64,000 nt of DNA from Amoebophrya sp. A120 (Eukaryota > Protista > Dinoflagellata), in the NCBI GenBank assembly GCA_905178155.1, contig CAJINV010000007.1, positions 2,275,151 through 2,339,150 of the forward strand, read 5' to 3'. The first letter of the stretch is position 1. Each line of letters opens with the position of its first letter. Below are positions 3,503 to 57,120 of the stretch, one piece after another. The position numbers were made by a program, and so were the translations under genes. Under the pieces are notes generated by a model, which saw only the letters and a program-made list of their open reading frames with translations, was not told the origin of the DNA and ran no database searches.

Positions 3503-6301
3503 TCAGGCCGTCAAAATTGTTATCATGTCGTCTGTGACGTTGTTTTCCTTCAGCATCGTCCGTACCACAGCGTTGAACCCGGATGGGCCGGAGACGATTA
3601 CTCGACAATCCTTCACCATTCTCGAAACCGCTTTTTTCAACGACTCCACAGATATCCTGTTCCTGACCAGTTCGCAATTCGGCAGACCTTCGAACTCAGC
3701 CAGCTGGTCGTGTTGCTTCATTTCGTCGAACCCCCGGGACGAAAACGGCATAGTTCTTGCGCCAGTTACATCTCCATTGTTCTCCTCGTAGTCTGATGCA
3801 ACACTACTCGTTTCCCCTGTCAAGTGCAAGACGCAATTCCTCAAGCCCTGCGGTCCGTTTGCGAGGCGTCGTTTCTTTTGGTATTCGCTCTCCTCCTCCG
3901 CTCCGGCGGGGCCTGCTCCGGACCCCTCCTTGCACCATTGAAGGATTTCGGGAAGCATATCAAAAGGAAAAATCCCCCCTCCCCATATTGCAAAGATATG
4001 CTTCCAAAAATTTGTGTTGCGGATTTGAGGTCACAAATCACCTCTGTCTTGCAAGAAGACAAGGGCAGAAGTTTCCGCCACATTACGGAAGCTGTTTGTC
4101 ATGCTGTTGGGCATAAAGGGGAACCGTTTGCCATGCTGAACAACTAGACCCATACGCCCCTACCTAGCCTGGGGATCTGGCCGCCATGCCTCTCTGCAAT
4201 ACAAAGCTGATTTGTGGCCACAAATCAGCATCACAAATTTCCGTTTTGATATGGGGAGGGGGGATTTTTCATTTTGATAGAGCATCAAAATATCGTCCTT
4301 CCGACAGGAGAGGACCAAATCGATTGCGATCTTCAACTGGTCCGTCTTTCTCGTCGCGATGTTCAACTTGCTATACGGATCGCGGTGCGCCAAGACCTGG
4401 GGGAGCGCAACGACGCCGGTTCCGCCGAGGACGAGGAGGATGGACTTCTGGATCTGTTTCGGCATCTGCGCGTCTTCCGGGATAAGGTGAGGGAGGGTAA
4501 GGGTGATAACCGGCTGGGAAAGGTAGATTTGAATCTTGTTGCTGCTGATCTCGACATCTTTGCTGGGGGTTGTAGTTTTGGCTTGTTCTTGGCTGTTCAT
4601 CACGACGTCGCCTGAGCCCCCTGCTGAGCTGGGCGCAACTGCACTTTGGTTGATGTCCGCATGGTAATCATTCTCATCAACTACCACTTCCGTCCCCGCC
4701 ACGACCCGACTACTCGACCTAAATTCGTCCTCTCCACCTCGTCCACTTGGTTCATCAACCTGATCAGAAGTACTATGCAGCCTCTTCGAGATCGTATGTA
4801 GCCAGCTTGTCGCCTGGCCATCGGGGTAAATTTTGATCAGAATGTCACAAGTCCCCAGCTCCCACTCCTTGGCACTGCTGATGGGTGTGTAGTCACGCTC
4901 GACCCAGGGTAGTGGCCCTTCGTCTTCGATTTCGTCTTGTGACTTCGATTGTAAAACCAAGTCCAGATTCCGCGGCGCAAGCAATGTTGTGTGCCACGTT
5001 TTGGGAATCGGCATCTTCCCGCGGCCGCGGGGGTGTGGTGTGGCGCGTTTTTTGTCTTGCGAGGAAAAGTGGAAGACAGCGGAATGATAAGAAACCGGGG
5101 TCACTTTCTCCAACGTCCACTTGGTGTAGTTGTCAATGGCTTCTGGGAAGACAAAATTCCTGTTTCGCTCCGAAGTTTTATTTACAGCGGAGGAAGACGA
5201 AGATGCCGATGCGGTTGCTGGAATTGCGTTGCTTGGATCTTGTGATGCTGCGCCGACATCAGAATCTGGAGATGTTGCAGCACTCGCGTCGTTTTCGCCT
5301 GCTCTTTTCGCCTTCGCCAAATCCGTCAGCATTTGCTGCGTTGTCGTCGTGCCGTCGAATGTTTTCCACTTCTCTTTCTCCCCACCCCCGCCGACGTTCG
5401 TCGCTTCCGCCAGCATTTTCGCTTTACATGTGTCGATGAAGAGTAGCAGCCGCTTCAAATTCATCACCGGCATCATCATTTTTTCGTTCGGATTCATCGC
5501 CGAACTGACCTCAGTCGAACTATCCATCAATTGCTCCAGCTTCTTCTCAATAGCCCCCACCGCTTGTTCGTCCGCGTGTTTGGAAAGCAAGGAGATCTTC
5601 TTCCTGGTTAAATTTTCCAATTGCTCCTGCAAAAAAGCCTTGTTGCTCATCGCCTGCCTTGCGTTATTTGCCCCGAGAGCTAGACCTGAAGAGGCGCCGC
5701 CTGTTTGCATTAAACTCTGCTGCAGCTGCTGATTTGCTCCTTTCCCGAGGGAAAAAAAACGCTTTTCCGCGTTCTGCAGCACCTTGCAGCCGTCCTTCCA
5801 AAAGCCGGCCATCTCGAGTAAATTTGCCTGTGCGATTGCGAGTTCCACAAATTTCTTCGCGTCGAAGGAGTCGATTTGTTCCACCTCCCCGGTCAGCTTT
5901 ACTTGCGCGGACAACCCCTTGAGCGCCGTGTTCCACTTGAAAACCGACGCCGCGTACTGCCGGCTGCGGCTCAGTCTGATGTCCTCTAGCCTCCTCTTCG
6001 CGTTTTCGTCCAGGAAGCAGGACTGGAGTAAAACGCTCGCCGCAATCCCGGCGGCAAATTCGATCATCCTTGCAATGGCGTCGGAGGTGGAGAGTCTCGT
6101 AAAGGGGGTTTCGTTTCTCCGGTTCTTCACCACCACGACGCCCGGCGCCTGGCTGCAGAGCCCCAGACACCCGGATTGATGGACGGCGCAGGTGTTTTTC
6201 GCGTCAGAACCACTGACAAGCTCTTCGATCTCGATCAGCGTGGCTTCGGACCCGGCCTTGCGGCAGGAACCCGCTTGGCAAACGAGGATGTCGACGGCCA
6301 T
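3503..6301 (-). CDS. Thioredoxin-like [2Fe-2S] ferredoxin fused to a cytochrome-b5-reductase/FNR-type FAD/NAD(P)H oxidoreductase (~823 aa; exons 6301-4280, 3952-3503)
   Basis: N-terminal CQAGSC...SGCLGLCSQAP; FAD motif RDYTPIS and KIYPDGQATSWL; NAD motifs GGTGV and SGPSGF; ORFs 4160..6301 and 3503..3958 join in frame (DDILML|PEILQW) after removing the 3958-4279 element plus one direct repeat. Confidence 0.8.
3958..4279. mobile_element. Introner/MITE-like element, family D (322 bp)
   Basis: TIR TATCAAAAGGAAAAATCCCCCCTCCCCATAT / ATATGGGGAGGGGGGATTTTTCATTTTGATA; flanks AAGCA (3953-3957) and GAGCA (4280-4284); interrupts CDS, removal restores frame. Confidence 0.9.
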
Positions 6302-7319: not shown

Positions 7320-9974
7320 CTATAAGGTGCCAACACCTTCCACCACGACATCGGCCTTCTGCACGGGTTCGCGATATTCCGCTGCAAAGTGCCAAAAGCC
7401 GAACACCAACTGTTGAGTTTCGGGGCCATCTGGCGAGCTGCCAAGAACTTCTCGGCAAATACTGGTCGATGTGATTTGCACTGGCAGTCTTGCGAGCGTC
7501 ATGATCCGTCGGAGCTCGTCGACTTTATGTTGTACCGCTTCCGCAGTGATTCTTCCGCACCTTTTGGACGTCGTCGAGGTCGAGGTGCTTACTTTTGCAT
7601 GCGATCTGATTTTGTCGGAACAAGACGTGGCGGAAGCAGCTCGGGGGCCGTAGAAGAACTCACGCCAGTCGGTCGACCCGAAAAAGTATTGGAACACACT
7701 CTTTGGCAGGTAGTGCTTTTGGAGGCGATCCAAAACCACCGCTAACGGAACCCAGATCGTGTTGGGGGTGGCGTCCACGACGAAAGCTCCCACTAGCTGT
7801 GTGGAGGTCGATGAGTCGACTTCTTTCACCCCTGGTGCTGCAGCGAAAGACCTCCCCGTGTAGTGGTTCTTCTTGCCGAGCTTCACCACCGGGCACAACA
7901 TGTTTCGCACCGCCATCGCCAGAGTGTAGATCATGAGGGGCTCCAGGACCGCCCCGGGGAATTTCGAAAACGCCCCGGTGGAAAATGGATCGTAGATCTC
8001 GCCCTGATCGACGAAGGTCTGTTGCTTTTTCTTCGCGTACCGGACATCCGCAGCGGGTTTTGCAGCACCAGCAGGCGGCATCATCTTTTTCGACTCGGCG
8101 ACGAGATCCGCGAACGTCAGCAACCCGACAATGTCGTGTCTCTCCAGTTCTGCGGGATCGACGCGGTCTCCGCCGGCGCGGCTCAAGTTCACCATCAGCT
8201 CCCAGAAATCGAAATCGTGGGCGGCGCAGAACGCCTTCAACTCGTCGCGAAACTCCCGCTCGAGAAAATTCATCAGTTCGATCCGGTACCGCAGCTTGTG
8301 CCGCCTGTACTTTGCGTCCGCGTCCTGCATGCCCCTTTCCATCCGCATCAACTCCAGCGGATCTTGCTCCCCCGGAAGCGTCGGCGCCTGAATCGGAAAC
8401 ACCAGATTCGGCTTGTCAACGATGAACGGTTCGAGGAATAAGGGGATGTAGTGATCGACACGGCTGCTCTCGTCTTCTTCCCCACAAGAACTACCCCCGG
8501 CAGCGGCAGCTTGGGGGCACAAAACTTTCGCAAGCTCGAAGAAGATGCGCGGAATGTGTTGTCTCTCCCACGGCTGGAGACCCTCTTCGGGGTGGGAGAG
8601 GGCGGCGGCATGAAGAGAGTCGTGCCGCTGCATCTTACGATGTTCTCGCACGGGTCGCAAAACCAACATGAACAACTGCTCTTCCAGGTAGTTCACGGGC
8701 GCCCAATCCGTCAGCACACTGTCGGACGGAGCATAATTTTCCTCCTGGTTCTGGCCGAAGCTGTGGCTGATGTGCCCACTCGAGCAAGAGATACTAGCGG
8801 TAGACGTTTCATCTTCTGCTTGTTTGATCGGGGGGCTCTTGGGTTCGTCAACCTTCTGTTCAACACCTTCAGTTTGAAACTCGCCTACTGCCGATGGACG
8901 AGACCCGGATCCCTCTGTTTTACTCGGTGTTTTTCTATTTGTACCACCAGCGTCGGAAAAAGAACCACAACTGGACGTTGCAGCTTCATCGCATTGCACC
9001 ACTGAAGCGCAAGAATCGTCACTCGTGTCCGTCGATTTGCTTACAGCTGTTGCAGCTCCACCTGACGATGCTGCGCCCTTGGAGACACTGCAGATTTTTT
9101 TCGCATGAACATGATCTTCTTCTGGAAGTTCTTCTCGCGATTCTACGACGACATCATCAAAAGCATCACGCTCTTCAGGACCACAGCCCAGCACATTCGG
9201 CTTCTTCTTGCCTTGGGTGGCCGCGATCAAGGCAGCCGCCAATGCCTCGGCTTCACTGCGCAGAAGCAAGACCTTCTGCTCCTTGACTTGCTCGTGTAGC
9301 CAACGGCGCGAACTCCACGCAGATTTGCAACCCAGCTGACCTAGTACTGCTCCGGTGAGACCTAGCGTCACGATCGTCCCGGTGGAAGCGATTTCCCGGG
9401 CTTCTATTTTGCGATGCAGCTCCGCGATCTTCTCCTGGTGTAGAGAATCACTGTAGACAATCTTTCGGGCTTCGGCGGCGGCGGCCGCGTCCGTGTAGTG
9501 GCACGAGTCGCGCAGGTGCGCTTCCTCAGCGCTTCTTTCGCCGAACCAGGTACAGCCACGGTCGCGCATCGGGCAGGGGAACCGGATCGCAGGGCAGGTC
9601 TCCCAATGGATCGCTGCGTCGGAAAAGTTGAATGTGGCCTTGCAGCCAGTGCAAATCGCGTTCGCCTTCGCGATAATCGACCTCAACCCGCGCGCGGGCA
9701 CCCATTGCAATTTCGGCTGCCGGCAGTGCGGGCAGGAAAGCTCGTCGCTCACAGTTGTACCTGTGCCGTCATACTGCTGCTTTGCTTTTTCGTGTGCTTG
9801 TTTGATTCCCACGAGGCAGTCCTCGCAGAAATCGCAGCCGCAGCATGTCACACACACTGGATCCCGGGGCTTATCGTAACAGATACTGCACTCCAGATCG
9901 TTTAACAACGGATCATCATACTCCAACGCTGGCGGGACGAAAAGCTGCCTCGACCTTGTACCCGAGTCGCCCAT
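7320..9974 (-). CDS. RING finger + TRAF-type zinc finger protein (putative E3 ubiquitin ligase), paralog 1
   Basis: CSIC...CCGCDFCEDC...CPHCR RING, then CTGC...HWETC and CPMRDRGC.W.G.R...H...C fingers; ATG at 9974 within ORF 7320..10007; C-terminal region alignable by eye to paralogs (QPWERxH). Confidence 0.8.
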   Translation of the reverse strand: MGDSGTRSRQLFVPPALEYDDPLLNDLECSICYDKPRDPVCVTCCGCDFCEDCLVGIKQAHEKAKQQYDGTGTTVSDELSCPHCRQPKLQWVPARGLRSIIAKANAICTGCKATFNFSDAAIHWETCPAIRFPCPMRDRGCTWFGERSAEEAHLRDSCHYTDAAAAAEARKIVYSDSLHQEKIAELHRKIEAREIASTGTIVTLGLTGAVLGQLGCKSAWSSRRWLHEQVKEQKVLLLRSEAEALAAALIAATQGKKKPNVLGCGPEERDAFDDVVVESREELPEEDHVHAKKICSVSKGAASSGGAATAVSKSTDTSDDSCASVVQCDEAATSSCGSFSDAGGTNRKTPSKTEGSGSRPSAVGEFQTEGVEQKVDEPKSPPIKQAEDETSTASISCSSGHISHSFGQNQEENYAPSDSVLTDWAPVNYLEEQLFMLVLRPVREHRKMQRHDSLHAAALSHPEEGLQPWERQHIPRIFFELAKVLCPQAAAAGGSSCGEEDESSRVDHYIPLFLEPFIVDKPNLVFPIQAPTLPGEQDPLELMRMERGMQDADAKYRRHKLRYRIELMNFLEREFRDELKAFCAAHDFDFWELMVNLSRAGGDRVDPAELERHDIVGLLTFADLVAESKKMMPPAGAAKPAADVRYAKKKQQTFVDQGEIYDPFSTGAFSKFPGAVLEPLMIYTLAMAVRNMLCPVVKLGKKNHYTGRSFAAAPGVKEVDSSTSTQLVGAFVVDATPNTIWVPLAVVLDRLQKHYLPKSVFQYFFGSTDWREFFYGPRAASATSCSDKIRSHAKVSTSTSTTSKRCGRITAEAVQHKVDELRRIMTLARLPVQITSTSICREVLGSSPDGPETQQLVFGFWHFAAEYREPVQKADVVVEGVGTL

Positions 9975-10626
9975 CTTTGTTTCCCCAATTGGAGATTGTT
10001 GAATCAATTCCAGAACATTTGTTCAAAAAATATCCCGAACATCTGGTGGGTACGCGAAGAATAAGAAATTTGAGATGTTCCAAGTCTTTGGAGCGGTTCC
10101 CGGTCACGACGGAAACGACGAGTTTTTCCTTGCGACGAAAGACGACATTGACGCAACGGCAACAAGAGCAAGACGCATTTTCATCTAGTTACGGCGAAAA
10201 TAAACGACGGACCACTCCGACTCTCACGAGACTCACGGTCCGATCGAAAGACCTAGACAACATGAGTGCACGAGCACGACCATCAATCCATAGCGATTAT
10301 ATCGATTCACCACGACTGCTACCGATCCCGATCCCTTGCTCGCTTTCTACTCATCGCAACGAAATAGACGCGAAGCTTTTATGTTGGCCTTGATGTTTGG
10401 CCGCCGACCTCTTGATAACTTCACGGCCGTCGGTTTCACATATTAATTACCTTGTAGCTTTTCTAAACTTTCCGTTTCCAAGCAAATCCGTGTACAGTAA
10501 AGAATCTGATGTGCTAAATAATTCTGTAAAGCCTCCGAAACTGTACCGGAGTGCACTTGTATATTCGTATTTTCTTTGTCAAAAATAACCAATAACATCC
10601 TTGAATAAAACGACGCTTAGACTTAC

Positions 10627-10841
10627 TGATAGAACACAGACACTCAGAATACTATAGCCGTGATAGACTAAGAGCATATGCACCCGCTTCACTCACCTGA
10701 GTGGATTTGAAAGAATCATGGTTCGAGGTTCTACTCCCCGGAGGTCATTCATGTCATTTCATGATCATCTTTCTTATCGTTTGGATCTCTAGCTTTGCTC
10801 TTAGCTCTACAATGTAGGTCGTATTCTGATCCTTCCCTACA
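10627..10841 (-). repeat. 3' LTR of copia element
   Basis: 215-bp direct repeat of 16305-16519 (12 mismatches by eye), TG...CA ends, adjacent PPT AGAGGGGGAA on minus strand. Confidence 0.95.
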
Positions 10842-11207
10842 TTCCCCCTCTGATTGAACCAAGTCCAGAAGCAAGACGGCCTGCTAGGTGTCAAGTGACT
10901 CCAAGAATTGCCTGATTGCTACTTGCGACTTCAATCCTAGAGCAAACGAGAAAGGACCCGAGCAGCGGCTGGATCGTGTCAGGGTCTGAAGAGTACATCC
11001 ACCAACTCAACAGATTCGAACTCTCATAACCAAATGGCTACGGAGTACCGGTCTGATGCGCCAAAAACCCCCGCAGATACCCTGCTACCCGCCAAGTGAC
11101 TCCAGATGAAGCATCACGAGCGTGGGAGGAAGAGACCATCACAACCTACAACACAAGTTCCCGCAGTCCCTTGCGACCCTATCTACCCCATTCCCCCTCG
11201 ATTGCAA

Positions 11208-16178: not shown

Positions 16179-16304
16179 GTTTTTGGTATTCTTCGGAAAC
16201 TGGTAGAGAAACTCTAGAAACCTACTCGATAAAAGAAAATCGCAAGCAATAGTAAAAGTATACTACTACTGAGTCCACTAAGCTCTAAAAGCTCAAGGCG
16301 AGAA

Positions 16305-16519
16305 TGATAGAACGCAGATACTCAGAATACTATAGCCGTGATAGACTAAGAGCATACGCACCCGCTTCACTCACCTGAGTGGATTTGAGAGAGTCATGGC
16401 TCGGGGTTCTACTCCCCGGAGGTCATTCGTGTCATTTCGTGATCATCTTTCTTGTCATTTGGATCTCTAGCTTTGCTCTTAGATCTACAATGTAGGTCGT
16501 ATTCTGATCCTTCCCTACA
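16305..16519 (-). repeat. 5' LTR of copia element
   Basis: Direct repeat of 10627-10841 followed by TSD CTTAC. Confidence 0.95.
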
Positions 16520-19405: not shown

Positions 19406-20594
19406 TTTGAAAAAAACAACGACGATAACTACGAAAAACAAATATCGACGATTAGTCCAACCTATTGATGTGGCGGGTATCAAAGTAGAAGAGGTGAGAA
19501 TGAGACCCATACGACTACAACGAGCTCAACCATCAACGACCACAACACCGATCAAAACGATTCGTATGATTTGACGAAGCTTGTTGCCCGCTACGGAGGG
19601 CGGATCTGATGCAGATCAGACGATGCTTGCTGGTGCGAATAATACGACCGCTTATGTCGACCTTGATACGACGAGTCTCTTTACGAGGACGAAGAAGGCG
19701 ATCGACGACGATTTCTTCTCTAGCGCTCTTGTTCTCATATTCGATGTCGACTGCGAGTGGTCAACCTAAACCTTTATGCAAGAATATACACGACGGACTG
19801 AAACTGTCGCTCCTGCGGTCACGGACCACATCAACATTTTGAGAGCGAAAAACGAATCGAAAGGACGACACGACGACGGAGGGCGAAGAAGCGAGTTCTC
19901 ATTTGGAACTCCTCAGCAGCCGAGAAAGGGTATAGAAAGCAAACACTTTTATTTCGGGAGCCCATCCAGGACTATGCGGCAGGCCTACCTCGAACCATTG
20001 TGATCTTTAACTTTTCGCATCAACCTCAAAAGTGTGTACAGTTGAAACCTGTTGGAGAAAAAGAAACTCTGAACAAGAAGTCTCTAAGTTATACAGGATA
20101 AAGAAAATGAAAATGTTGCACGACAGAGTGATGAAAATAATAAATGTTTGAGGAAATCCACTATCCATCTGTGACTAAGTTAGGATTGAAAACAAAACTT
20201 GTGCCGGAGGCGGAGCACGCCGAGACTAGGCGCTGTAGCTGCGACTCGATACTGGAAGTTGGAGAACTTCGAAACACAATTTCATACGAATTTTTTCAAA
20301 AGAAGAAACAGCGAAAGTTGAAAGTGTACATTAGTGACATCACGACGCGAATGACGACCTATCGCTAGGTGAGAAACAAATATCTGTGAAAATAGTAAAC
20401 AAGATGTTCAAATAAACAACGTCGTACAAGAGAAAGAGAATCCTGTTAAGGCAAAGAAAGCTGAAACCTGTCATAAACTCGAAACGAAATAACGACTGCA
20501 GAAATCATAGTCAAGAACTAGCGAGAAATCATACTCTCCTGCCTTTCACCAAACTAACAGCAGCATCCGCGATATGGAGATTGTCACAGCTCGC

Positions 20595-24139: not shown

Positions 24140-25352
24140 TCAGCCAGATTGGAAGTCACCAAAAAAACCATCATCGTCTTCAAATGGATCTTTATCAGCC
24201 GTGTTGTACCCCATCGGCGCACCAGGCGGCGCCGCGATCCCTCCCCCTCCGCTAGGTGGTGGCGGCATCGCGAATCCTCCTCCCCGATTCGGACTTGCGC
24301 CACTGCTCGTAGTAGTTCCGACCAGCTTGTTTACTGTGTTGTTCGCTTTATTCCCACCCCCTCCGGGGGTCTTCAAACTTCTGATGCTTATCTTCTCCCC
24401 GGCTTTCAAACTGTAGTCTTTCTTCTCAAAATTGATGGAGGATGATGCTTCTGCAGATGATCCGCCCGCCGGTCCACTGGAAGCAGCTGTTGAGGAGGCT
24501 GCTGATCCACCTGAACTCGTACCTCTGAAATCCGTTAAACAGCAGTTGAAATCGAACGCGTCGTTCCGGTCTTCGTATCCTGTGCAAAAGTATCGTACTC
24601 GTATTACAATCATGCATTACAAATTTTTTTCTCAAGGTAAATCCGCATTACAAATTTAATTTCTCATTCTCATGCTGAGGAAACTTGTAATGCATTTATA
24701 CGAGTACGTGTACGATACTTTTGCAATGCATACTTCGAAGCCCAAGCCGATGTACGCCGTTTTCTTCGTTCCCGGGTGCACTTATAAAATGTAAAAGTGT
24801 CTGGGTCTGGAAGAGGAGAAGTTTGTCATGCACATTTTACATGATCCATGATGTCTCTGATGTATGAAATAGCATCACAGATTTATCGAGCGCGAGCGCC
24901 TATCGATGCGCGTCCAGCATGACAAATGCCCTCTCCGCGTAGCCAAATTTGAGTCCTCTATCTGCTCATGCAATGCAGATTTTTTTAGCATCCAAATGCA
25001 GCATCACAAGTTTGGCTCTTCCAGACCCAGACATGTTTGCAATCCATAGCACTACTCGCAAGACGAAATACCGGCTGGAGTCGACCGTTCGTTCAATAAA
25101 TTTCTCGTGGTCCCCGTGTTCGATGACCGATTGCAGGAACATCTCCTCCGTGGCCGGTTTGACCAGGCGGAGCACCACGTGCGGCCCCTTCGCAACCACC
25201 CAGACCTTGCCCTGCCAAATGCAGTTTTTCCACTCCTCCGCCCGGTGTCCGGCGGCGGTCGCGCGGGGCGGCACCTGGAAGGCGTTGACGTCGCGCCGGT
25301 TCAGAATCGTGTACTCGATCTGTTGTTCCTCATCGTCTTCCGAAGAGGCCAT
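24140..25352 (-). CDS. NECAP: NECAP / adaptin ear-binding coat-associated protein (~259 aa; exons 25352-25049, 24777-24733, 24570-24140)
   Basis: Spliced product VPPRATAAGHRAEEW...VDSSRYFVLRVV|HPGTKKTAYIGLGFE|DRNDAFDFNCCL...SLKAGEKISI matches the PHear domain signature; both introns are TIR elements. Confidence 0.9.
24576..24732. mobile_element. Introner/MITE-like element, family B (157 bp)
   Basis: TIR TATCCTGTGCAAAAGTATCGTAC / GTACGATACTTTTGCAATGCATA; perfect direct repeat CTTCG (24571-24575, 24733-24737); removal restores GLGFE-DRNDAF. Confidence 0.92.
24783..25048. mobile_element. Introner/MITE-like element, family A (266 bp)
   Basis: TIR core TGTCTGGGTCTGGAAGA / TCTTCCAGACCCAGACA; perfect direct repeat GCACT (24778-24782, 25049-25053); removal restores YFVLRVV-HPG. 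Confidence 0.93.
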
Positions 25353-26966: not shown

Positions 26967-29900
26967 TTATTTTATCGCGACCCATCCCGGCAGCAGTTGC
27001 TTATTGGGCGACTTCGCAGCGCCAGCACCATCGCTCGGACGTGGCGACGCCCCGGGACTTACGGTCCCGGGTGGCAAGAGCCCCAGCTTCTGAATGTAGC
27101 CCGCTCGTATCTGCACCGGCGTTTTCATCCAGTTCGTGTCTTCGGACACGTCTACCACCTCGACTATCGGGTCAAAAACCTGAATGTGTGGCCCCAGGAA
27201 GGCACCGAACGCACGGTAGGGAAGTTTGTCCTCGTCAGAGGGGGACGCGATCGAAGTGGATGGGGAGACAGACCCCGATGCTGTCGTGCTCGGCACGGGA
27301 ATGGTTGTAGTGGAAACTGCATCGGGGTGTGATGTGTCTGGCTGCTGGAGCAGCTTTTCCCGAAGCATTTTCTCTTGGGAAGTCTTCGCCTGTTTTTCTT
27401 GCCTCTTCAGCATCTTGGCGCCACCCTTGTACACGACCAGGCCGATGAGAACGGTGAAAAGGGCGAACCTGGGATGTTTGAAAGAATGTATGTTCTTCCG
27501 GCGGATGTTTTGTCTTGTTCATCTTCGACCTGCCAGGACGACAAAAAGTTGTTATAGAACTGATGTGTCTGATGGTCCTCAGTCACGCGCTGGCCCCATC
27601 CATATATCTCTAAAAGCGACTACACCTGCTGGACCTGTATACAACTACTTCTAGGTACCAGTCCACCATTCGCATCGGCACCGCGGAGCTTCCCATGATG
27701 ACCGGCGACGCGAAGAGCACGCTGGTGATTGGCAACCGAGCGGCGTTGATAACGAAGTAAAAGCTGGCCGTGCCGTACTTGACGAGCAGCATACAGAGGA
27801 TGTTGTAGGCGATGTTGAAGGAGATGTACATCGTGGTCGCAAAGCCAGCGGCGTCGCACTTGTCGCACGGCCGCAGCCCCTGCATCCGGGGGAAGGTGCC
27901 GTCGTCGCAGTCGTCTTTCACGGTGTTGTATCAAATGTAAAAATGTCTGGGTCTGGAAGAATCTAAACTTGTGATGCTGTCTCTGGATTCGAAAAACATT
28001 TGTATTGCATGACCAGTAAGAGGAGTAGATTTTGTGCTCCACGGAGATGGCATTTGTCATGCGGAATAGGTATGAGGAAGCGCTCTAAAAATCTGTGATG
28101 CTACGGCATGCATCACAGACATCATGGGTCATGGAAAATATGCATGACAAATCTAGAAATGTTCCAGACCCAGACATTTTTACACTTGATATGTTGATGC
28201 CGATGAAACACTTCGCGCCGTCGATGAAAGACGGAATCATGTCGTTCAATGGGATTTGGCTGATATTTGTGTTGATGTACGTGTCCATTTACAAGTTCTT
28301 GTGTTCGCATCTACTTCCAACATGCACTGCAAACTGATCCCGCTCCGTGCTCTTATTGGTCTTGCTGTGCGTCAGGGATTCAGCAAAGTACAACGAGCAA
28401 TTCTCAAGATTTAGTACAATACATTCACAGAGGACCACGCGCAGCGGTGAATAAAAAGAAAAAGTACCTCGGCCCCAAAATCGGCAGAGTGTACAGCGGA
28501 CAGAGAACGAAGTTGAAAAGCCCCTGGAAAACGGCAACCCACATCTGGATCAGGTTGACCGAGAGGTTTGGGACATCCTGGAACGCGACTTCCTTGTATA
28601 TTGTGGACAGTGCAGTGGGAAAATTGCTCGACGCGAAAATCATGTTGAAAGTAACATTGTCACCGGAGTCCGTGGTAGCGGCTTGGGGCCCGATCTTCGA
28701 GACGGCTGGTTTACGTATTATGATGCAGTAACTAGTTCTAGTGGTGCCTAAAAATGTAAATGACTATGATATGATATTACCAATTCGCTAGTTGTATCAT
28801 GATCAACTGCACCAAGCAATCTCTTTACCAACGCCTCCGACTATGACTGCTGCGCCGAGGTACTGGTAAAGATGGAAGCGGCGTCGCAGCAGCAGGACCG
28901 ACAAAAGAATCGTCACGGGGATGGCTCCTTGTGTGAGCAACACCTGGGTGCCACCGGCGGTGTAGGCACCGCCGAGAACCTGAGCGGGTTATTTGAAGAC
29001 GAAGATACAGATAGACGTCAACATTACATATATTAAGTTGAAGCAAGCATCTTCTTCTTCAAGGGTGGGTGAACCTGAAGTAGACACAGTACGGGAGGTA
29101 CTCCTCCTGAATCTTTGAATCCGCCAACGACAACGACATGTACTTAGCTCCGCCTGCAGTGCCTGTGCCAGTCTGCTCAATAACAGTACTAGTTCTAGTT
29201 CTAGTACCATGGTCATCCCGGCGCAGGCATCGAGCAAGCCCATGACCGCCGTCTTCCGCTTAGGAATGTCGCCTCCCGCTTTCTGCTCCCACATCTTCTC
29301 CAGCTCGGTCGCAAAGTAGAAAAACGGAATGAACACTATCGTGGTCACGTTCGTGGTGAACCAACTGTAATTCGCAAGGGAAGTGGTCATCTTCTTGAAG
29401 TAAATCGTGTTCCCGGTCGCCATCAGCATGTAGCACCCGTACATCAGTGCTTTCTGCCAAGAACTGAGCTTTTTCCTGGACATCGGTGCTGCAGTACTGC
29501 TTGTGGTCTTGGTGGCACTTGTAGCTACCGCGCCAGCGCCACTATTTTCTACTTGTCTGCCGTCAAGATTTGAAACACCAGGTGGATGCACCGTGGCAGA
29601 TGTTTGATGTCCTCTATTAGGATTGCTCCGGTTGATGATGTTCTGCTGGTCAACAAAGAGCTTCCCGGGGCTATTGAAGTTCGTTTTGTTCGGAGAGGGA
29701 GGCTTGTTGTAGTAGCCTCCGAGAATCCCGCTATTACTCGCCGGACCTCCACCTCCGCCTGCAGTGGCCCAGGGTGGCTGTAGCGACGAGGTGGATGATG
29801 TGCTGTTGTTCCCTCCCAGGAAGTTGATTTGCTGTCCTCCGTAAAAATTGGCACTTATTCCGGGCGGCGTGATCAACGGCGCGGCCTGCTTCGACGGCGT

Positions 29901-32668: not shown

Positions 32669-32770
32669 AACAACATGCAACCTGAAGAACATGCGAGAAC
32701 CTGAACAACATGCAACCTGAACAACATGCAAGAACTTGCCTGAACAACATGCAACGTGAACAACAGCAAC
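32669..32770. repeat. Imperfect minisatellite, ~16-bp unit CTGAACAACATGCAAC, about 6 copies
   Basis: Repeated units visible directly in intergenic DNA upstream of the CRT-like gene. Confidence 0.8.

Positions 32771-36336: not shown

Positions 36337-36338
<2 letters not shown>

Positions 36339-36366
<28 letters not shown>
36339..36366. repeat. (CTTT)7 microsatellite
   Basis: Direct reading; abuts a 16-bp palindrome CCATGCCCGGGCATGG (36367-36382). Confidence 0.85.
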
Positions 36367-36367
<1 letters not shown>

Positions 36368-49902: not shown

Positions 49903-51405
49903 GGTGATGCTTGTTATCGCGTTGCGCTAAACTAGAAGTTGATAGGATTTACGCAGATTCGGATTTTTTTTTTCATCGTGAGTACTAGTTGACCGGAGTT
50001 GTAATCTTAGTAGATAGAAGGGAAGCTGCGGGTAAGTACAACAACACTAGCATGCAGACAAGGGGAAAACACGTGTTGAAGAACTCCAATCTTCTATAGG
50101 CGTCGGGGGATACCGTCTCAAAATTGCATAGCTTCAACTTCAAGAGTTCTGTTCCTGTTACACATAGACTTTTGATGCTGATGTTTTTCTAGAACGTAAA
50201 AAATAAAGGGAGGAGCATCAGTAGTCTGCTGTCTTCCGTTATCGGGAAGAGAAGTTCAAGTTCTTCAATAAATTACGGCCGGCGGACGAGATTTAGCGAT
50301 TTACGACGACCACGAACGTGTACGCACGAAACCAGTACCGACGTTCTTTTCGAAAACAAAGGTTTGGTAATTGAGCACGAGCATCGCAACAGGAAAAATT
50401 CAGATTGCACCACGACATGACCGAACAAATAAGGGCCCACCTACGATGGCAGATGAAAACGACGGGGACCGATCTACTCTCAGCTCGCCACAAAACCGAC
50501 GCAAATTTTTGTACGTCAGAAGCAAGTGACAACTGAGCCTTCGTTCCCTGAGATACGCAACCGCATGACCGCAAATTCTTACTGTGGAAATTTGTAAACA
50601 ACGAAACAGCAATCGCAGCCAACCGTGGCATTGCAGCGGTGCTTTTCGCGCTCGTCGTCTTCGTGTATCGTTGGGGACAAGGAGCTACTTTTTCTTTACT
50701 TTATGAGCTTTTGAATAACAACTTCTGCTCTGGTTTGGTTTTCCATTTGTTTTCATTTTCAACGGCAGACGCGGAAGCCGGCAGAGCCTTTTCATTTTTC
50801 CAAAACAAGACGAAACTTCAAAACGGGGCGTCAATCAGAACAGGCTGCGTTTCTCAACACTGTGCGATAACATTGACTTATGCCTACACGAGTAGGCTGA
50901 TGACTTGTGTTCTCAAGGATAAGAAAAAGATAAAGAATATCAATCAAGTGGGGAAATAACATTATCTTCTTACGTAGGGTATTTTTCTTTTTACTTCTGC
51001 GTTTAGACCACCGCAGCTGGAGCTACACCGAAGATTTATGTTGAAACAGAATTTCAATTTTGTTTGTGAGTCTCTCTCTGTTCTTCGTCCACTATTAGTT
51101 CTCACTGTCATTCGTCTTCTTCTGAGCTAGAATCCGACACCCGCGCCACTCCGGACGACGAGCTGCTCGTGCTCGTCCTTCCACCCCTGCTCGCGAGCGT
51201 CGACCGTCTATGAACTATCGAATTTCTTATCAAACAAAAGAATAGTAGCCTCCATGTCCATCCTGTCCCCGTGTGCACAACAACAAGAAGATCACACCTG
51301 CATGACTCAAATTCTATCTCAGTACATCGAATAAATCGATGAACGTGCTCCTGTAAACGTATTTGAAGTCGGGCGCACGACGTTCAAGGGTAGAACTAGA
51401 AGCAG

Positions 51406-54400
51406 CTAGCTTCTTATTTTTGTTTTGATACTTTTCCGTTTCTTCGCACAGAGCCGTGTAAAGCAGACCGCCAAGCCAAAAGCGATGATGAGACAGCAAA
51501 ACATGCAAACCAAGCCGAAGATATCCACAGAAAAAAACCCATCCACATCCAATTTGTCATGCAAAAAATGGATGTGGATGGGTTTTTTTCTGTGGATAGA
51601 AGAGGAGCAGGTCGTAGAACTTTTTCTGCTCCTCCGCCAGCCGCTGCTCGTGCTCCTCCCGCAACTGCACAATTTGCTTCCGCATCAGCTCCTGCTGCAA
51701 ATCGGTGTTCTCGTGCTTCGCCAGATTCGCCGCAAACTTCACGTCCAAGAGGTCTTGCGCGATCATTTCCCGCTGCCGCTCGCCTTCCCGGAGCAGCCGC
51801 GTTTGCTCCGCGATGGACTTCGCTAGCTGCTCCGCCTCAGCCCCCGTGCCTGCTGATGCTGGATCTCCACCTGGATGCTGGTCGTCATGACTTACTTCTA
51901 GGGAAGCCGGAACATCAGCAGAAGAGCCAGCAGCTCCGGGCGTTGGAAGTTGTCCTAGAAGTCCTCTACTCTCGTCTCGTCCACTAGTACCAGCACCACC
52001 TCCTCCTCCTCCCCCGCCCATACTTCCGGTTGTTCCCCCGGGCGAGTGGGGTGGCGGCTTTGCCCACGAGGCCAGCTCCGGCCGCAAAGTGCGCCGGCGC
52101 ACCTGCAAGTCCCGAATGGTCGACCTGCGAACCTGCAGATCCTTCGTCAATTGCTGCTGGCAAGCAGTGAGCAGTTTCTGGCGGTAGAGCACCGCCTCGA
52201 GCCGCAAGTCGGCGTCCATCATGCGCCGCTTGAGTTCGAAAAAATTGGTGATGGTAAACGCGGTGGACAGCTTGTTACTTGACGTCATTATTCCTGCTCC
52301 TTGTCGGTTATTTTGCATCTCGTCCGTTGCAGAAGTTCCGGAGTTTGGTGGAGACAGAGCTACCCCTGAAGATTTATTGCGAACGAAAAAAACCGCGCGC
52401 CGTCGGATACTAGGAACCGCCGCCGTCCCAACATGTTGAGAAGACACAGCGGGCGACGATGACCTCCTATCGCCCAGCAAGGTTGATGTCACTACAGGCA
52501 CCATCAGGATCCCTGTTTCCTCGGGCCACCAGTACTTGTGTAGTACGTTCCCCTTCTGGCCCCAGCGCCAGGGGATCACGTACACAAGCCACGTCATGGG
52601 TAGTTGCTGGTTTCTTGTTTGTGTTGCGGAGGAGGTCTCGTCAACTGTAGTAGAAACTCCAGCCCTCCTTGTTCCTTCAGAAGACCCGGAAGAACTCGCC
52701 CCCGCGGCCAGGCGCTCCATCCGCTTTCTCTCCGCCAATCGGAGAGAAACCTGGTCTTCCTGAAAACGTTTCAGTGCCGCGTTGCGCAAATCGATTTCAT
52801 CTTCCACGCCACTCGTGGGGATGTGGTCGTCCCCCTGCTGTCGGCGGTGGTGCACCGAGGTGCGGAAGGTTGCATTTTTCACCTCCTCGGGAGAAGGTTC
52901 TTGTGAATCCATTCTTGAGCTACCGACTGCTGGTGGGCCTGCAAGATGAAAATTGCGATTCTTTCTTGCGTGTTGCTCCGAGGAGCTGTTTGTGGGTGGA
53001 GAGAGCGTACAGGCCTCGTCCAAGTCTTCCAGGGTCATCTGCAGATGTTGTTGCTTTTGAAAATTAGGCACGGACAATGAGAAATCCGTCACGTCGCCTT
53101 CAGAACAGTTGCGAAGGTCCGACTGTTCCTTGTTCGTGCCCGTTCCATTTCCGAGAAGGCCTACTTTCGGCGGCAGTGTATACCCTTCCTTTACCAGTAT
53201 CTCCTCGACACTGCGCTGCACTTCGAGCAGAACGTTTGCTTTGCTCTTCTCAGGCCGCCAAAAGAAAAACTCCGCGGTTGTGCGGAAGGGCGAGAGGGCG
53301 GAAGAAGTGCGTTGTTCTACTTGAGTCGTGTCGTCCGCAGGAGTCGCGCCGTCTTTGAAAAAAGGCACGTTTGGTCGTGGGCAGGTGTTTGTCAGGGCAC
53401 CACCTGCAGATGGTGTTTGATCTTGTAGCTTTCTTGTCGCCCCCCTCGCGTCTCCAGCAGCTCGAGCTCCTCGCTGTGGTTCAGAGGTGCTCGCAATTCT
53501 ATTTCCGTCGCCTGCCGATGTAGTTGCATCTTCGACAAGATTCATAGCCGCTTCGCCGGAGGAACCAAACGTCGAAAGTTGCTCTCTCCTAGCTTATATC
53601 AAATGTAAAAATGTCTGGGTCTGGAACAATGCAACTTGTCATGCTAAATCGGAATCATGTAAGAATCATGTGTGTTGCATGATTACCAAAAGCTGTCCAC
53701 TTTTGACCTAATCGAGAGGCAGTTTCTCATGCACGATAGGCATGATAGAACTCTCACAGAGTCTGTCATGCTATGTCCTTCATGCCAGACCTCATGGGTC
53801 ATGGAGAACCTGCATGACAAATCGCGCATTCTTCCAGACCCAGACATTTTTACATTTGATAGCTTCTTCCCGATCCTCCTCCAGCAGCAGTGCGGAGGGC
53901 CTAGGCCGCCCACGGTCACGGCTCGAGGCCTGATTCACGGCATTACCGCCAATGCTGAGCCTGCGGGACCGCCCTGACGCGGTTGTGCGGTGCGAAGATG
54001 AAGTGGATATGCAGGACCCAGCGGACGCTTGCAGATGGTCCGCGGACCCGGCCTGGTGTGGTCTCACCAAGCCCGACTGCCGGCGGGAGGAAACAGACGT
54101 CGCGGGCCTATTTGCTCCTGTGGTGCAGCCGCCGCCCTGCAACAGGTTCAAGTCGGCACCACCGCCAGCAACACCACAACATGAAGACCCTGCAAAAGCG
54201 TCCGGCACAATTGCCGCGAAGTCCAAAAATTCCTGCGAAACTTCCGGCACCAAGTTGCCCGGCTCCGTCGTCGAAATGGGGTGGCGGAGCTGAAATTTCG
54301 CATTGGCTGGGAGGTGAAGGAATTCCGGAGGTTTCGCGGCTTCGGAATGTTGATGAAGCGGAGGGGGCGTCGTGACGGGTCTAGTTGGCTCACCAATGCT

Positions 54401-57120
54401 CGTCGAGTCCGGGTCCACTTCTCGAATATCTGGCATGTTCTGTTGTACTTCTACACGCTCGGAGGTCCGATCGCTTTCATGATCGTTATCCACCGCACCC
54501 TCCACTCGGTCGTACACGCCACTCGCCAAGCCGCTTTTCCATTCCGGCGCGAAGGAGCTGGCCTTCGCTAAGCGAGAAAACCGCAACGGGATTTCCAAAT
54601 CGCTCTCGTCCAAATAGGTCGGCGGCCGCAGCGGAACCGCGGCCCTCCTGGCCCGCTGCATCTTGTTCAGCCAATTGGAGCCGCTGCTGGTCGTAGTGGA
54701 GGTAGGAGCCGCGGGCGTCGGGGCCTGAGGTGGACCCATGCCGCGATCGTTTTTTGCTTGTCCACTGTTCTGAGCCGCTGCGTGCGCGTTGGCGTTCTTG
54801 CCCTCGATCTCGGCCGCCTGCTGCAACACGCGGTCTTGGAACTCCAGAAATTTCCGGTGGTTTTTCCGCACCGCCGACTCGAGTCGGCCCTTGATGATCT
54901 GTTTCCAGAAAAAAACCTCGTCCTGTTCTTCCTGCAATGCATCCTTTCTCGCGTAGTCCTCGAGTGCGGCCTGCTTGTTGATCATGTGGTCCTCGCATGG
55001 GCCACGAGTCTGCAGCAGATCCTCAGTGCTGCTCGTCGGGTCGACGTTTCGTCGAGCGTCAAGCGCTGAACTTTGCCGATCTAGGTGTCTTCCACCCGAG
55101 TCAGTAAACGATTCGTCCTGCGGACAAAAATTTGTAGCAGATGGTCCTACTCCCGCGGGCGCAGCCAGCTGCGTAGTTGGTGTCATCGCATTGCCAGTCT
55201 TTTCGTTCGAACTTTTCCACAAGCCTGCCAAACCTGTCCCTGTAGGAACCTGCTTCTGAAACTTGTCGACACAACCCCGCGGATTCCAGGGCGGTAATCG
55301 CTTGGGGAGCCAAGGTGGGTAGTGTGGACTCTCGTTTTCCTTGTACGCTGCAATCGACGCGGTTGTGTTCGCAGTTTCGTTTCTAGCACCTTGAGCGTTC
55401 TTGAGCTGCAATCTGTTACCACCGATCTCACAATGCAATCCTGGCGCCGCCGCGGCCGTTTCTGTAGAAGAGCCACCACCCCCACCTCCCAGAGGGATCT
55501 CGGAGGCGGAACCGGAAGAGCAAGTCAGGTAATTATCCTGCGTTCGTTCTTCGTATCAAATGCAAATATGTCTGGATCTGGAAACAGGAAACTTGTGATG
55601 CAAGCCAGGGAATAGTACTGGGCGCACTGTCATACGTGGCCAAGCATGACAAGAAGCTTTTGAGCTGCTATGTGTAGCTTATTCCGCATGGCAGACTGCG
55701 GCTGCGCTTTTGCGTCACAGACATCAAAACGATCCTTTTGCACCTACGCATGACAGAGCTTCGAGTCATGTGCATGTCAGACAAGCATGACATATCTGGC
55801 AATCTTCCAGACGACCCAGACACATTTGCAATGCATAGTTCATCGTCCGGATCCTCGTCCGAACACGACGCGAATTCGTCTGCAGCGTGCTTCGTTCTGA
55901 GGTTCGTGGAGGTCGACGTCCACAAACTCCCCGGCGGGTAGCACTTTTCCGCAACCAACTCCCTCCTCGCACTGTTATGCGCGGTCAGTTTCACCTCCCA
56001 GTTCTTCGGCGGTTCCCGTTCCAAGTAGTAGTGCGACCCCGCGCCGAAGGGCAGCCAGGAGCTCGGGCCTCTGCAGCGAAACTTGTCCGACACGACGGCG
56101 CCGGTGGCAAGCTCGACCACCTCGCCGAGTCCGTCCCTCTCGCGGATGTCGTGCAGGAGAAGAACGGTAATTCTTTTCAATTTGCGAAACTTCAGGTCTT
56201 CGGCGGACGACGGCCACTTGCGCTCGGCGCCGCGGGCCTGTGCGTCTTCCTCGTCCGTGGGGAATTTCCAGTTCTCGATCTTTTCCCTCAAGGAAGAAGT
56301 AGGTGGCGTGGGTGCGAGGGAGGAACTCCTGCTGTCGTTCGCATTCACATTACGATTACCTCGCCCATCCTCGTGCCCGACGGCGCCATAATTTCCAGCT
56401 GCATTGTTCGGAAGTGGTAACAGACTGCTCTGCTGTGGTCTCGGTATGATTGATGCACTTGTTGCACCTGCTCCACCTGCGCTGCGCCCAGCAGGTCGTC
56501 GCGGCTGCAGGTCATGTGGATCATCCAAAAGAGGATGGGACGACCAAGAAGAGCTTGTCTTGGGCTCCGGGGTGCTGGTTCCATGATACCAGGTGTCGAA
56601 TTCATGGTCGGAGACCACGTACAGACCAGCGGCGCAAAGTTTAGGCTTGCTGTGGTCAATATCAACTGTAAAAATGTCTGGGCCTGGAAGATTTCCAGGT
56701 TTGTCATGCATATATATTTCGAATGAGCTATGATGCCTGTAATGCATGACCTAGCATGACAGATTTTTTGCGGGTATCTTGATGCCTATCCCGCATGACA
56801 AATGCTCTCTCCGCGGAGCAAAAACTGGACGCCTCTTGCTGCTCACGCAATACAGATTTTTTCAGATTCCAAAAATAGCATCACAAGTTGCATTCTTCCA
56901 GACCCAGACATTTTTGCAATCCATAGTCAATTGTCGTGGCTTGTTGCGCGGACGAGAGCGATGCCGGAGGCGCGATGGTTTTCTGCTGGTGGTGCAGCTT
57001 TCGCCCTATCGCCAAGGACGACCGATTGGTGAGACCTGAGAACGATAGGACTGCAACGCAAACGCAGTGGATGAAGAATAGACGAGCATGGATCAGCCTT
57101 CTACCCAAACAGAGAAGCAT
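51406..57120 (-). CDS. Large hypothetical protein (~1600 aa): N-terminal hydrophobic leader, low-complexity body, coiled coil, C-terminal TM; exons 57120-56926, 56654-55838, 55548-53862, 53591-51599, 51516-51406
   Basis: Five ORFs join in one frame when four TIR elements are removed (TTID|HSKP, DDE|xRTQ, EEA|RREQ, LLLF|GLVC); start codon uncertain. Confidence 0.75.
51522..51598. mobile_element. Miniature introner, family C (77 bp hairpin)
   Basis: Perfect 30-bp TIR TATCCACAGAAAAAAACCCATCCACATCCA around a 17-nt loop; perfect direct repeat GAAGA (51517-51521, 51599-51603). Confidence 0.92.
53597..53861. mobile_element. Introner/MITE-like element, family A (265 bp)
   Basis: Perfect 30-bp TIR TATCAAATGTAAAAATGTCTGGGTCTGGAA; flanks GCTTA / GCTTC; removal joins ORFs 53792..55438 and 51557..53545 in frame. 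Confidence 0.92.
55554..55837. mobile_element. Introner/MITE-like element, family A, diverged (284 bp)
   Basis: Degenerate TIR TATCAAATGCAAATATGTCTGGATCTGGAA / TTCCAGACGACCCAGACACATTTGCAATGCATA; flanks CTTCG / GTTCA; removal restores frame. Confidence 0.85.
56660..56925. mobile_element. Introner/MITE-like element, family A (266 bp)
   Basis: TIR TATCAACTGTAAAAATGTCTGGGCCTGGAAGA / TCTTCCAGACCCAGACATTTTTGCAATCCATA; perfect direct repeat GTCAA (56655-56659, 56926-56930). Confidence 0.92.

What the first reader, a model, noticed from the sequence alone, without database searches (positions are those of the whole stretch)
3958..56925. Eight TIR/direct-repeat elements act as non-canonical introns (introner system) in four genes
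Seen: elements at 3958-4279, 24576-24732, 24783-25048, 27929-28191, 51522-51598, 53597-53861, 55554-55837 and 56660-56925 all begin TAT, end ATA, have TIRs and ~5-bp flanking direct repeats (5 perfect, 3 imperfect). All are inside CDSs; I saw no intergenic copy. Removing element + one repeat restores the frame each time, including conserved NECAP and CRT motifs. No register within the repeat yields GT-AG or GC-AG, although the CRT-like gene has ordinary GT-AG introns. Known: inverted-repeat introner-type non-canonical introns have been reported in Amoebophrya genomes, so the class is not new. Inference: non-autonomous DNA transposons spliced precisely from mRNA; the mobilising transposase and the splicing route are not visible here.
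Basis: partly seen in the sequence, partly recalled or inferred. Interest (0 to 1): 0.9.

Follow-up and report, generated by a model that had tools for sequence, protein, structure and literature searches.

The report
Known Amoebophrya transposon-derived non-canonical introns
Small hairpin-ended, transposon-like inserts interrupt genes of the marine parasite Amoebophrya and are missing, to the base, from probable RNA assemblies although they lack normal splice signals; the phenomenon is already published for this organism, and what this window adds is a likely fixed cut position (one base before the hairpin, four bases after it).

Summary
All eight elements are where stated: TAT...ATA ends, TIRs matching at 19-25 of 25 bases, 5-bp direct repeats, no GT-AG or GC-AG register. 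I found four more (37760, 38520, 51228, 60401), giving 12 in six genes. Probable RNA contigs of one sample skip exactly element+5 nt at 5 of the 8 directly and at a sixth by lengths. The other two are bridged only by public proteins. Three spliced products are identical to proteins annotated for Amoebophrya sp. A120, whose introners (TAT + 7 nt + AAA, 29,850 copies, RNA-seq supported) were described in 2021, so this is already known. A second assembly gave 267 more copies, 208 with perfect 5-bp duplications, six inside RPB1. What is added: five diverged duplications fit only one common register, intron = N+TAT...ATA+NNNN, keeping U+2/A+3 of a normal donor with no acceptor consensus. This is weak alone (chance 0.2). 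Two window-derived rules (C at +1; GATA at the 3' end) failed in the larger set. No transposase was found, and the splicing machinery is untested.

The parts
3958..4279 (-). Introner (322 bp, TIR 24/25, repeat TGCTC/TGCTT on sense strand) in a 2Fe-2S/FAD-binding oxidoreductase-like gene
   Evidence: spliced product equals public protein P0035 (823 aa); 117 HSPs of homologs span the junction, and the 8 printed show no gap at it; no RNA lay covered it
24576..24732 (-). Introner (157 bp, perfect repeat CGAAG) in the NECAP gene
   Evidence: joint 24570|24733, skip 162, in 4 of 4 runs; P0001 identical
24783..25048 (-). Introner (266 bp, ~265-bp family, perfect repeat AGTGC) in the NECAP gene; leaves a 45-nt micro-exon
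   Evidence: joint 24777|25049, skip 271, in 4 of 4 runs; P0001 identical
27929..28191 (-). Introner (263 bp, ~265-bp family, perfect repeat CAACA) in the CRT-like transporter gene, among four GT-AG introns
   Evidence: joint 27923|28192, skip 268, in 4 of 4 runs
37760..38067 (-).
   Evidence: joint 37755|38069, skip 313, both=0, in 3 of 4 runs; P0030 agrees
38520..38792 (-).
   Evidence: P0030 matches only if 0-1 nt of the upstream repeat is intronic; no RNA joint shown
51228..51430 (-).
   Evidence: X3 record 9 piece ends and lengths; middle piece inferred, not displayed
51522..51598 (-). Introner (77 bp, almost pure hairpin, perfect repeat TCTTC)
   Evidence: skip of 82 inferred from X3 record 9 lengths
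53597..53861 (-). Introner (265 bp, TIR 25/25, repeat GAAGC/TAAGC); keeping the whole downstream repeat would give an in-frame TAA
   Evidence: X3 record 9 skips 270 and keeps the upstream G; RNA fold of element plus 10-nt flanks -121.9 kcal/mol, z -10.9
55554..55837 (-). Introner (284 bp, repeat TGAAC/CGAAG); the contig takes base 1 from the upstream and base 5 from the downstream copy, so the cut is inside the repeat
   Evidence: X3 record 10 skips 289
56660..56925 (-). Introner (266 bp, ~265-bp family, perfect repeat TTGAC)
   Evidence: unnamed library protein P0033 equals the spliced translation across it and not the unspliced one; no RNA joint displayed
60401..60607 (-).
   Evidence: X3 record 11 skips 212
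3503..6301 (-). Host gene 1: 823-aa oxidoreductase-like protein
24140..25352 (-). Host gene 2: NECAP (PF07933), 259 aa
26967..32153 (-). Host gene 3: CRT-like transporter (PF08627), with GT-AG introns 27469-27658, 28260-28467, 28706-28828 and 28980-29207
37308..39911 (-). Host gene 4: 670-aa protein equal to P0030
51110..57171 (-). Host gene 5: about 1647-aa protein of unknown family, five introners
58535..62221 (-). Host gene 6: ORF of about 1100 aa (start not fixed), one introner and GT-AG intron 59672-59819

Best explanation
These are Amoebophrya A120-type introners: non-coding TIR elements with 5-bp duplications inside exons that are absent as element+5 nt from probable RNA contigs, likely inserted as non-autonomous DNA transposons and likely cut out by a relaxed spliceosome at a fixed register set by the element's end-pairing stem. 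Shown: anatomy, repetition, exact loss from contigs that also lack the GT-AG introns, and restoration of the protein. Inferred, step 1: a trans-acting DDE transposase or integrase recognises the TAT-N7-AAA ends and makes a 5-nt staggered cut with little target preference. Inferred, step 2: in the pre-mRNA the TIRs pair and bring the two repeat copies together. Inferred, step 3: the intron starts one base before TAT and ends four bases after ATA. The donor then reads N-U-A-U (U+2 and A+3 of a normal GUA donor kept, G+1 relaxed), and the acceptor is set by distance from the stem, not by AG. One repeat's worth of sequence goes with the intron, so the pre-insertion mRNA is rebuilt and insertions anywhere in a CDS are tolerated. 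Confidence: introner identity about 0.97; fixed register about 0.6; spliceosome rather than another machine about 0.55.
For: Exact skips of element+5 in probable RNA contigs: 24576, 24783 and 27929 in 4 of 4 runs, 37760 in 3 of 4; 53597, 55554 and 60401 in X3, 51522 and 51228 by lengths. The same contigs skip five GT-AG introns, while DNA-like run X1 covers the stretch evenly at about 30x and runs from the flanks into the TIRs. Spliced products equal public proteins P0001, P0030, P0035 (named Amoebophrya sp. A120) and P0033. A second assembly has 267 elements picked without using the repeat: 208 have perfect 5-bp duplications, and 3-, 4- and 6-9-bp repeats occur in at most 5. GT-AG is possible in any register in only 8 of 156. 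Retention would leave the ORF intact in only 5 of 148. Six copies sit inside RPB1. Register (k = nt of the upstream repeat inside the intron): 37760 k=1; 38520 k 0-1; 51228 k 1-3; 55554 k 1-4; 53597 k<=4, so only k=1 fits all. Farhat Table S4: all nine commonest A120 non-canonical motifs have T at +2, and all nine in A25 are TT-NN with IRs starting TTA, so both strains keep U+2 and A+3. Farhat found 83 of 89 spliceosomal proteins and U2/U4/U6 snRNA, but no U1 snRNA. Most host genes here mix both intron kinds or sit next to genes that do.
Against: The RNA evidence is contigs of one sample whose RNA status is the tool's guess. Its independence from the public annotation is unknown, and 3958, 38520 and 56660 have no RNA joint here. 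The register rests on five elements; independent random registers would share a common one with probability 0.20. The three that exclude k=4 are old, degenerate copies, and one of them (51228) is inferred from lengths. Eight of the nine top A120 motifs also end in A-N, which is what k=4 (or k=1 read on the wrong strand) gives. Annotated 3' AG rates of about 25-30% in large A120 families exceed the 8% expected under k=1, so the published spectra are either aligner-biased or mixed. The codon-likelihood test of 39 repeat mismatches in the second assembly did not favour any register. The 'C at +1' bias (9 of 12 in the window) and the 'GATA at the 3' end' rule both vanished at n=156, so no donor or branch signal beyond the TIR itself is shown. 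U+2/A+3 lie inside a very stable stem and would need unwinding. No transposase was found.
Confidence: 0.6

Rival explanations
1. Same elements and same exact removal, but by a non-spliceosomal, structure-guided endonuclease plus ligase that cuts at the base of the TIR stem (as proposed for euglenid nonconventional introns), independent of snRNPs.
For: No acceptor consensus and no +1 consensus in 156 elements. Very stable end-to-end stem. At 51228 an available GT..AG pair 2 nt off is apparently not used. U1 snRNA not detected in either strain. Euglenid introns have TIR stems, TSD-like repeats and an asymmetric register (review passage).
Against: U+2/A+3 are kept in both strains despite different TIRs, which a pure structure cutter does not need (though they may only reflect the transposase's end motif). 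A nearly full spliceosome is present and needed for the GT-AG introns. In Fritillaria, MITE-derived non-canonical introns are spliceosomal.
Confidence: 0.3
2. The register is not fixed at k=1: it is k=4 (intron ends ATA+N, keeping the A of AG), or it floats within the repeat and differs between elements.
For: Published top motifs are NT-AN. Annotated sites vary, and automated mechanism calls differ between A120 families. k=1 and k=4 give the same intron-phase excess. 53597 and 55554 allow k=4.
Against: k=4 is excluded at 37760 (unique junction, 3 runs), 38520 (annotated protein) and 51228 (lengths).
Confidence: 0.35
3. The elements are unspliced MITE insertions that broke their host genes, or the skipping contigs are DNA of empty alleles or RT template-switch artefacts across the hairpin and repeat.
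For: Hairpin plus direct repeat is the classic substrate for RT template switching (established knowledge). RNA status of X3-X6 is a guess. Loose-end contigs show some element copies are present in these runs.
Against: The contigs also lack five GT-AG introns. No retained form of these loci is listed among the long pieces, and junction contigs carry the gene's own depth. Junctions lie at no-homology or partial-homology sites (37760, both=0). Host ORFs are intact and conserved across the junctions. RPB1 carries six copies. Retention would break 143 of 148 ORFs.
Confidence: 0.03

Closest known systems
Introner elements (IEs) of Amoebophrya sp. A120 (Farhat et al. 2021, PMC7789003)
   Same: Host proteins identical to A120 proteins; non-canonical ends; terminal IR starting TAT + 7 nt + at least 3 A; 3-5-nt direct repeats (Fig. 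S19 legend: 5 bp); mean NCI length about 240 nt; mixed with GT-AG introns; co-oriented genes; no transposase found.
   Different: Nothing in kind. In the text, legends and Table S4 that I saw, the paper leaves the border position within the repeat unknown or variable and argues against general transposase mobilisation. Here the duplication is strictly 5 bp and one register fits all informative cases.
A120 introner families in Gozashti et al. 2025 (PMC12130899, Dataset S2), incl. fam38
   Same: Most families classed as TIR DNA elements of unknown superfamily, many 150-320 bp; fam38 noted as '5-bp TSD, TA/TA termini' with LTR-element-like ORFs.
   Different: Their automated TSD lengths (2-6) and splice mechanisms vary between families. 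The window's copies carry no ORF or integrase homology. I did not map my families to their numbers.
Micromonas/Aureococcus introners (Huff et al. 2016, seen through review PMC11282704)
   Same: Non-autonomous TIR transposons whose excision with one TSD copy restores the mRNA.
   Different: Those carry or co-opt canonical GT/GC and AG sites. Here GT-AG is possible in only 8 of 156 and in none of the eight.
Euglenid nonconventional introns; Fritillaria borealis non-canonical introns (review PMC11282704)
   Same: TIR stem joining the intron ends, TSD-like repeats, non-canonical junctions, MITE origin proposed.
   Different: Euglenid stems start at about +4/-6 with CAG/CTG and Fritillaria introns have AG-AC/AG-AT ends. 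Here the stem starts at +2/-5 (if k=1) and the end dinucleotides are free apart from +2 U.

Membership tests
Amoebophrya A120 introner elements | Splice sites not GT-AG | tested here: met
   No GT-AG or GC-AG register in 8 of 8; possible in 8 of 156 in the second assembly
Amoebophrya A120 introner elements | Terminal inverted repeat of 8 nt or more that can form a hairpin | tested here: met
   19-25 of 25; fold z -10.9 for 53597
Amoebophrya A120 introner elements | IR motif TAT + 7 nt + at least 3 A | tested here: met
   16 of 16 ends of the eight elements against the paper's statement
Amoebophrya A120 introner elements | 3-5-nt direct repeat at the exon/intron boundary | tested here: met
   5 bp; 5 perfect and 3 imperfect; 208 of 267 perfect
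Amoebophrya A120 introner elements | Repeated in the genome | tested here: met
   Five related copies in the window; DNA-like depth 1e3-1e5 on TIR bins against about 30; near-full-length blast hits in fetched loci for 7 of 12, none for 51522 and the four added copies
Amoebophrya A120 introner elements | Removal supported by RNA | tested here: met
   Joined contigs for 5 of 8 directly, 1 by lengths; 3958 and 56660 only through public proteins; one sample, RNA status guessed
MITE / non-autonomous TIR DNA transposon | TIRs, fixed-length TSD, short, non-coding, many copies | tested here: met
   (median 262 bp; longest stop-free stretch 149 aa in the seven copies over 400 bp)
MITE / non-autonomous TIR DNA transposon | Cognate autonomous element or transposase sharing the TIRs | tested here: inconclusive
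   None in the window or in 144 loci; whole genome not held
MITE / non-autonomous TIR DNA transposon | Empty sites with one repeat copy in related DNA | not tested
   The A25 ortholog proteins are continuous, but no orthologous DNA was available
Ginger / LTR-integrase-type DNA transposons | Integrase-like ORF | tested here: not met
   tblastn of the window's Copia ORFs against 267 elements: best E 0.86
Ginger / LTR-integrase-type DNA transposons | TG..CA-type termini (recalled) | tested here: not met
   Termini are TAT..ATA; Gozashti's text also says fam38 lacks Ginger termini and TSDs
U2 spliceosomal intron | GT/GC..AG ends | tested here: not met
U2 spliceosomal intron | Lariat intermediate, snRNP dependence | not testable with these tools
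   needs lariat sequencing or inhibition
Euglenid-type nonconventional intron | CAG at +4..6 pairing with CTG at -8..-6 | tested here: not met
   ends are N-TAT..ATA-NNNN
Euglenid-type nonconventional intron | Spliceosome-independent excision | not testable with these tools
   needs experiment

The most novel reading that the evidence does not exclude
Amoebophrya A120's tens of thousands of 'highly variable' non-canonical splice sites follow one rule. The cut is one base before the TIR stem and four bases after it, so the donor keeps only U+2/A+3 and the acceptor has no sequence signal at all and is measured from an RNA hairpin. The apparent variability in the literature would then be an artefact of aligning reads inside 5-bp duplications. 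This would be a spliceosome (without U1 snRNA) that picks both sites by structure, and it can be tested at once on existing reads.
Probability: 0.5. Interest if true: 0.65.

Novelty: already known. Interest (0 to 1): 0.35.

Why it matters
The system itself is striking but published for this organism in 2021 and catalogued again in 2025. The public gene models that I could compare already remove these introns. The open questions are how such introns are excised and what mobilises them. The window offers a handle on the first: diverged target duplications act as natural markers of the cut, and here they point to one register that preserves U+2/A+3 and no acceptor. If that holds genome-wide, it reduces a 'no signature' problem to a geometric rule, fixes gene prediction in these parasites, and gives sharp predictions for lariat and minigene work.

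Tried and rejected
1. Whole-genome search: no genome is held. 2. Raw RNA runs X9 and X10: 6 and 3 reads, all partial on TIR ends; uninformative. 3. The 38520 element had no RNA joint and the bins beyond 38746 had no cover; this says nothing either way. 4. 'C at intron +1' (9 of 12, P about 9e-4) was rejected at n=156: A50 C38 G41 T27. 5. 'G-A-T-A end must be 3', supplying a branch-like TGAT' (5 of 5 asymmetric copies in the window) was rejected: 26 of 63, p=0.2. A branch A at -7 (A at -7 in 4 of 5 RNA-confirmed GT-AG introns, read) stays untested. 6. Register tests in the second assembly: stop codons at junctions were 0 for every register; codon likelihood at 39 mismatches was inconclusive; the SNF2 junction residue against PDB homologs was uninformative. 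7. Transposase hunt: seven copies over 400 bp have no ORF over 149 aa; one 1031-bp 'long copy' is three separate elements; 94 ORFs of 260 aa or more from the loci gave no transposase or integrase family at E<=1e-5. 8. The window's Copia element as mobiliser: it shares a 5-bp TSD but has TG..CA ends and no homology to the elements; not supported. 9. Two viral-contig pattern hits are chance matches without TIR or TSD context. 10. Target-site preference: the symmetrised logo of 208 perfect sites is nearly flat. 11. Earlier scan findings: none by place or sequence. 12. The frame-restoration control in loci is only moderate because any frame and strand was allowed: 71 of 85 open with +5 (70 with +8), 50-52 with other lengths. 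Rows dropped before counts: of 267 elements, 111 were left out of the strand statistics (strand margin under 5, repeat under 3/5, or length over 700), and 8 more for frame statistics.
Full report
Observation. The eight elements are at the stated coordinates, begin TAT and end ATA, and have TIRs matching at 19-25 of 25 bases. Their 5-bp flanking repeats are perfect in five, 4/5 in two and 3/5 in one. TAT..ATA pairs with TIR>=14/25 and repeat>=4/5 number 13 in the window against 0-4 in five shuffles. All lie in minus-strand ORFs of four genes: an oxidoreductase-like gene, NECAP, a CRT-like transporter and a 1647-aa unknown. No register within the repeat gives GT-AG or GC-AG. Scans and RNA joints revealed four more copies: 60401-60607, 38520-38792, 51228-51430 and 37760-38067. 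That makes 12 in six genes, all in CDS (chance 0.002-0.006). One weak candidate at 47842-48309 lies outside my CDS calls. Five copies form one ~265-bp family found in both orientations.

Are they removed from RNA? The run search gave DNA-like contig sets, four 'RNA?' contig sets of one sample and raw RNA runs with the same species label. On 41600-61500, X1 covers evenly at about 30x, runs from flanks into the TIRs, and piles to 1e3-1e5 on TIR bins, so the ends are highly repeated. X3 is patchy. Its contigs skip 270 nt at 53597, 289 at 55554, 212 at 60401 and a GT-AG intron at 59672-59819. They also skip 290 nt in all over 51224-51598, which equals 82+208, the 51522 and 51228 elements plus 5 each; the middle piece was not displayed. 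On 23600-40400, the joints 24570|24733, 24777|25049 and 27923|28192 (each element+5) appear in 4 of 4 runs. The four GT-AG introns of the CRT gene appear in 3 of 4, and 37755|38069 in 3 of 4. The raw RNA runs laid gave 6 and 3 partial reads and say nothing. Because these contigs lack ordinary introns too, they are best read as spliced RNA. They are one sample, and contigs show presence only.

What organism? The first NECAP exon hits a 259-aa protein named Amoebophrya sp. A120 at 100%, and my spliced translation equals it letter for letter. Both junctions fall in conserved motifs without gaps. The spliced products of the 3958 gene and of the 37760/38520 gene equal A120 proteins P0035 and P0030. 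An unnamed library protein spans 56660 in the spliced form only. Whether these models are independent of the runs laid is unknown.

A larger sample. In them I found 267 distinct TAT..ATA elements without using the repeat (0-2 in shuffles). 208 have a perfect 5-bp duplication; 3-, 4- and 6-9-bp repeats occur in at most 5. A codon model trained on the window called the strand for 160, concordant in 39 of 39 multi-call loci. In 156 usable elements GT-AG is possible in 8, and the 3' dinucleotide has no consensus. Retention would keep the ORF in 5 of 148. Six copies interrupt RPB1, so the hosts are not pseudogenes. Target sites show almost no preference. No long copy with an ORF and no transposase turned up.

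Where is the cut? Diverged duplications mark it. With k the number of upstream-copy bases inside the intron: 37760 gives k=1 exactly (no ambiguity, 3 runs); 38520 k 0-1 (annotated protein); 51228 k 1-3 (lengths; a GT..AG alternative 2 nt shorter does not fit and would shorten the ORF); 55554 k 1-4; 53597 k<=4, which also avoids an in-frame TAA. Only k=1 fits all: intron = N+TAT...ATA+NNNN. Independent random registers would agree with probability 0.20, so this is suggestive, not shown. Farhat's Table S4 fits in part: all nine top A120 motifs have T at +2, and A25's are TT-NN with IRs starting TTA. But eight of the nine A120 motifs also end A-N, as k=4 or a wrong-strand reading would give. Annotated AG rates in the 2025 dataset are far above the k=1 expectation, so annotation is biased or mixed. 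Tests in the second assembly were inconclusive. Two rules that looked significant in the window failed at n=156: C at +1, and GATA at the 3' end.

Mechanism. Most likely the elements are non-autonomous TIR transposons inserted with a 5-nt stagger by an unidentified enzyme. Their ends pair in the pre-mRNA (z -10.9), and removal of element plus one repeat's worth rebuilds the original message. I favour a relaxed U2-type spliceosome (about 0.55) because U+2/A+3 are kept in two strains with different TIRs and the spliceosome is nearly complete apart from U1 snRNA. A structure-guided nuclease-ligase is the main rival (about 0.3). Neither could be tested here.

Comparison and novelty. Farhat et al. 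[quoted passage not shown] Gozashti et al. 2025 (PMC12130899; section 6, passages, 40 of 58 A120 rows of Dataset S2; supplement files 13-14 not searched) class most A120 families as TIR DNA elements and note fam38 with a 5-bp TSD and TA/TA termini. Passages only: reviews PMC11282704, PMC11453091 and PMC12787238, and papers PMC12005148 and PMC13326754. Huff 2016, Roy 2023 and Henriet 2019 were seen only as cited there. Five literature searches showed no paper fixing the A120 register or the splicing route. Subscription journals are largely outside this library, and the unseen figures may already show the register.

Verdict. Real, spliced, and already known; interest 0.35. The fixed-register rule is the one new, cheap-to-test lead (probability about 0.5, interest 0.65 if true).

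Noticed in passing
window 10627-16519 (-): Full-length Copia-type LTR retrotransposon (215-bp LTRs 94% identical, TG..CA ends, perfect 5-bp TSD, integrase and RT domains) with gag-pol broken by frameshifts.
   Followed up: partly
L001-L144 (second assembly): Intron phase is skewed: repeat base 1 is at codon position 3 in 74 of 148 frame-called elements (p 8e-5), i.e. about 50/27/23% phase 0/1/2 under k=1 or k=4, with no matching target-sequence preference. The window's 12 do not show it (4/2/6). Unexplained.
   Followed up: partly
window 38520-38792; proteins P0031, P0032: Two unnamed relatives (85% and 65% identical) read into what looks like the same insertion at the same site, so this element predates their divergence or duplication. 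In P0031 the read-through part looks better conserved than the exon.
   Followed up: no
L064:5024-5995; L005:4001-5255: Family elements carrying 0.7-1 kb of extra non-coding sequence inside intact TIRs; the first sits in RPB1 with a perfect repeat.
   Followed up: partly
L064-L066: RPB1 of the second assembly carries at least six introners in its coding region.
   Followed up: partly
window 7320-10022, 16925-19525, 21442-23307 (-): Three RING + Sina/TRAF zinc-finger paralogs; the last two are a tandem pair about 70% alike in DNA.
   Followed up: no
whole window: All called genes are on the minus strand, as in the published co-oriented blocks of Amoebophrya.
   Followed up: no
window 47842-48309 (-): Weak TAT..ATA candidate (TIR 9/14, repeat 4/5) upstream of the 45573-47597 ORF; could be an old copy in a UTR or chance.
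   Followed up: no
window 41528-44247 and 20595-21449 (-): Overlapping ORFs in shifted frames, without TIR elements or RNA joints; may hide short introns or frameshifts.
   Followed up: no
window GT-AG introns: Four of five RNA-confirmed GT-AG introns have A at -7 and A-rich 3' ends with no pyrimidine tract. Under k=1 the first A of the elements' terminal ATA is also at -7.
   Followed up: no
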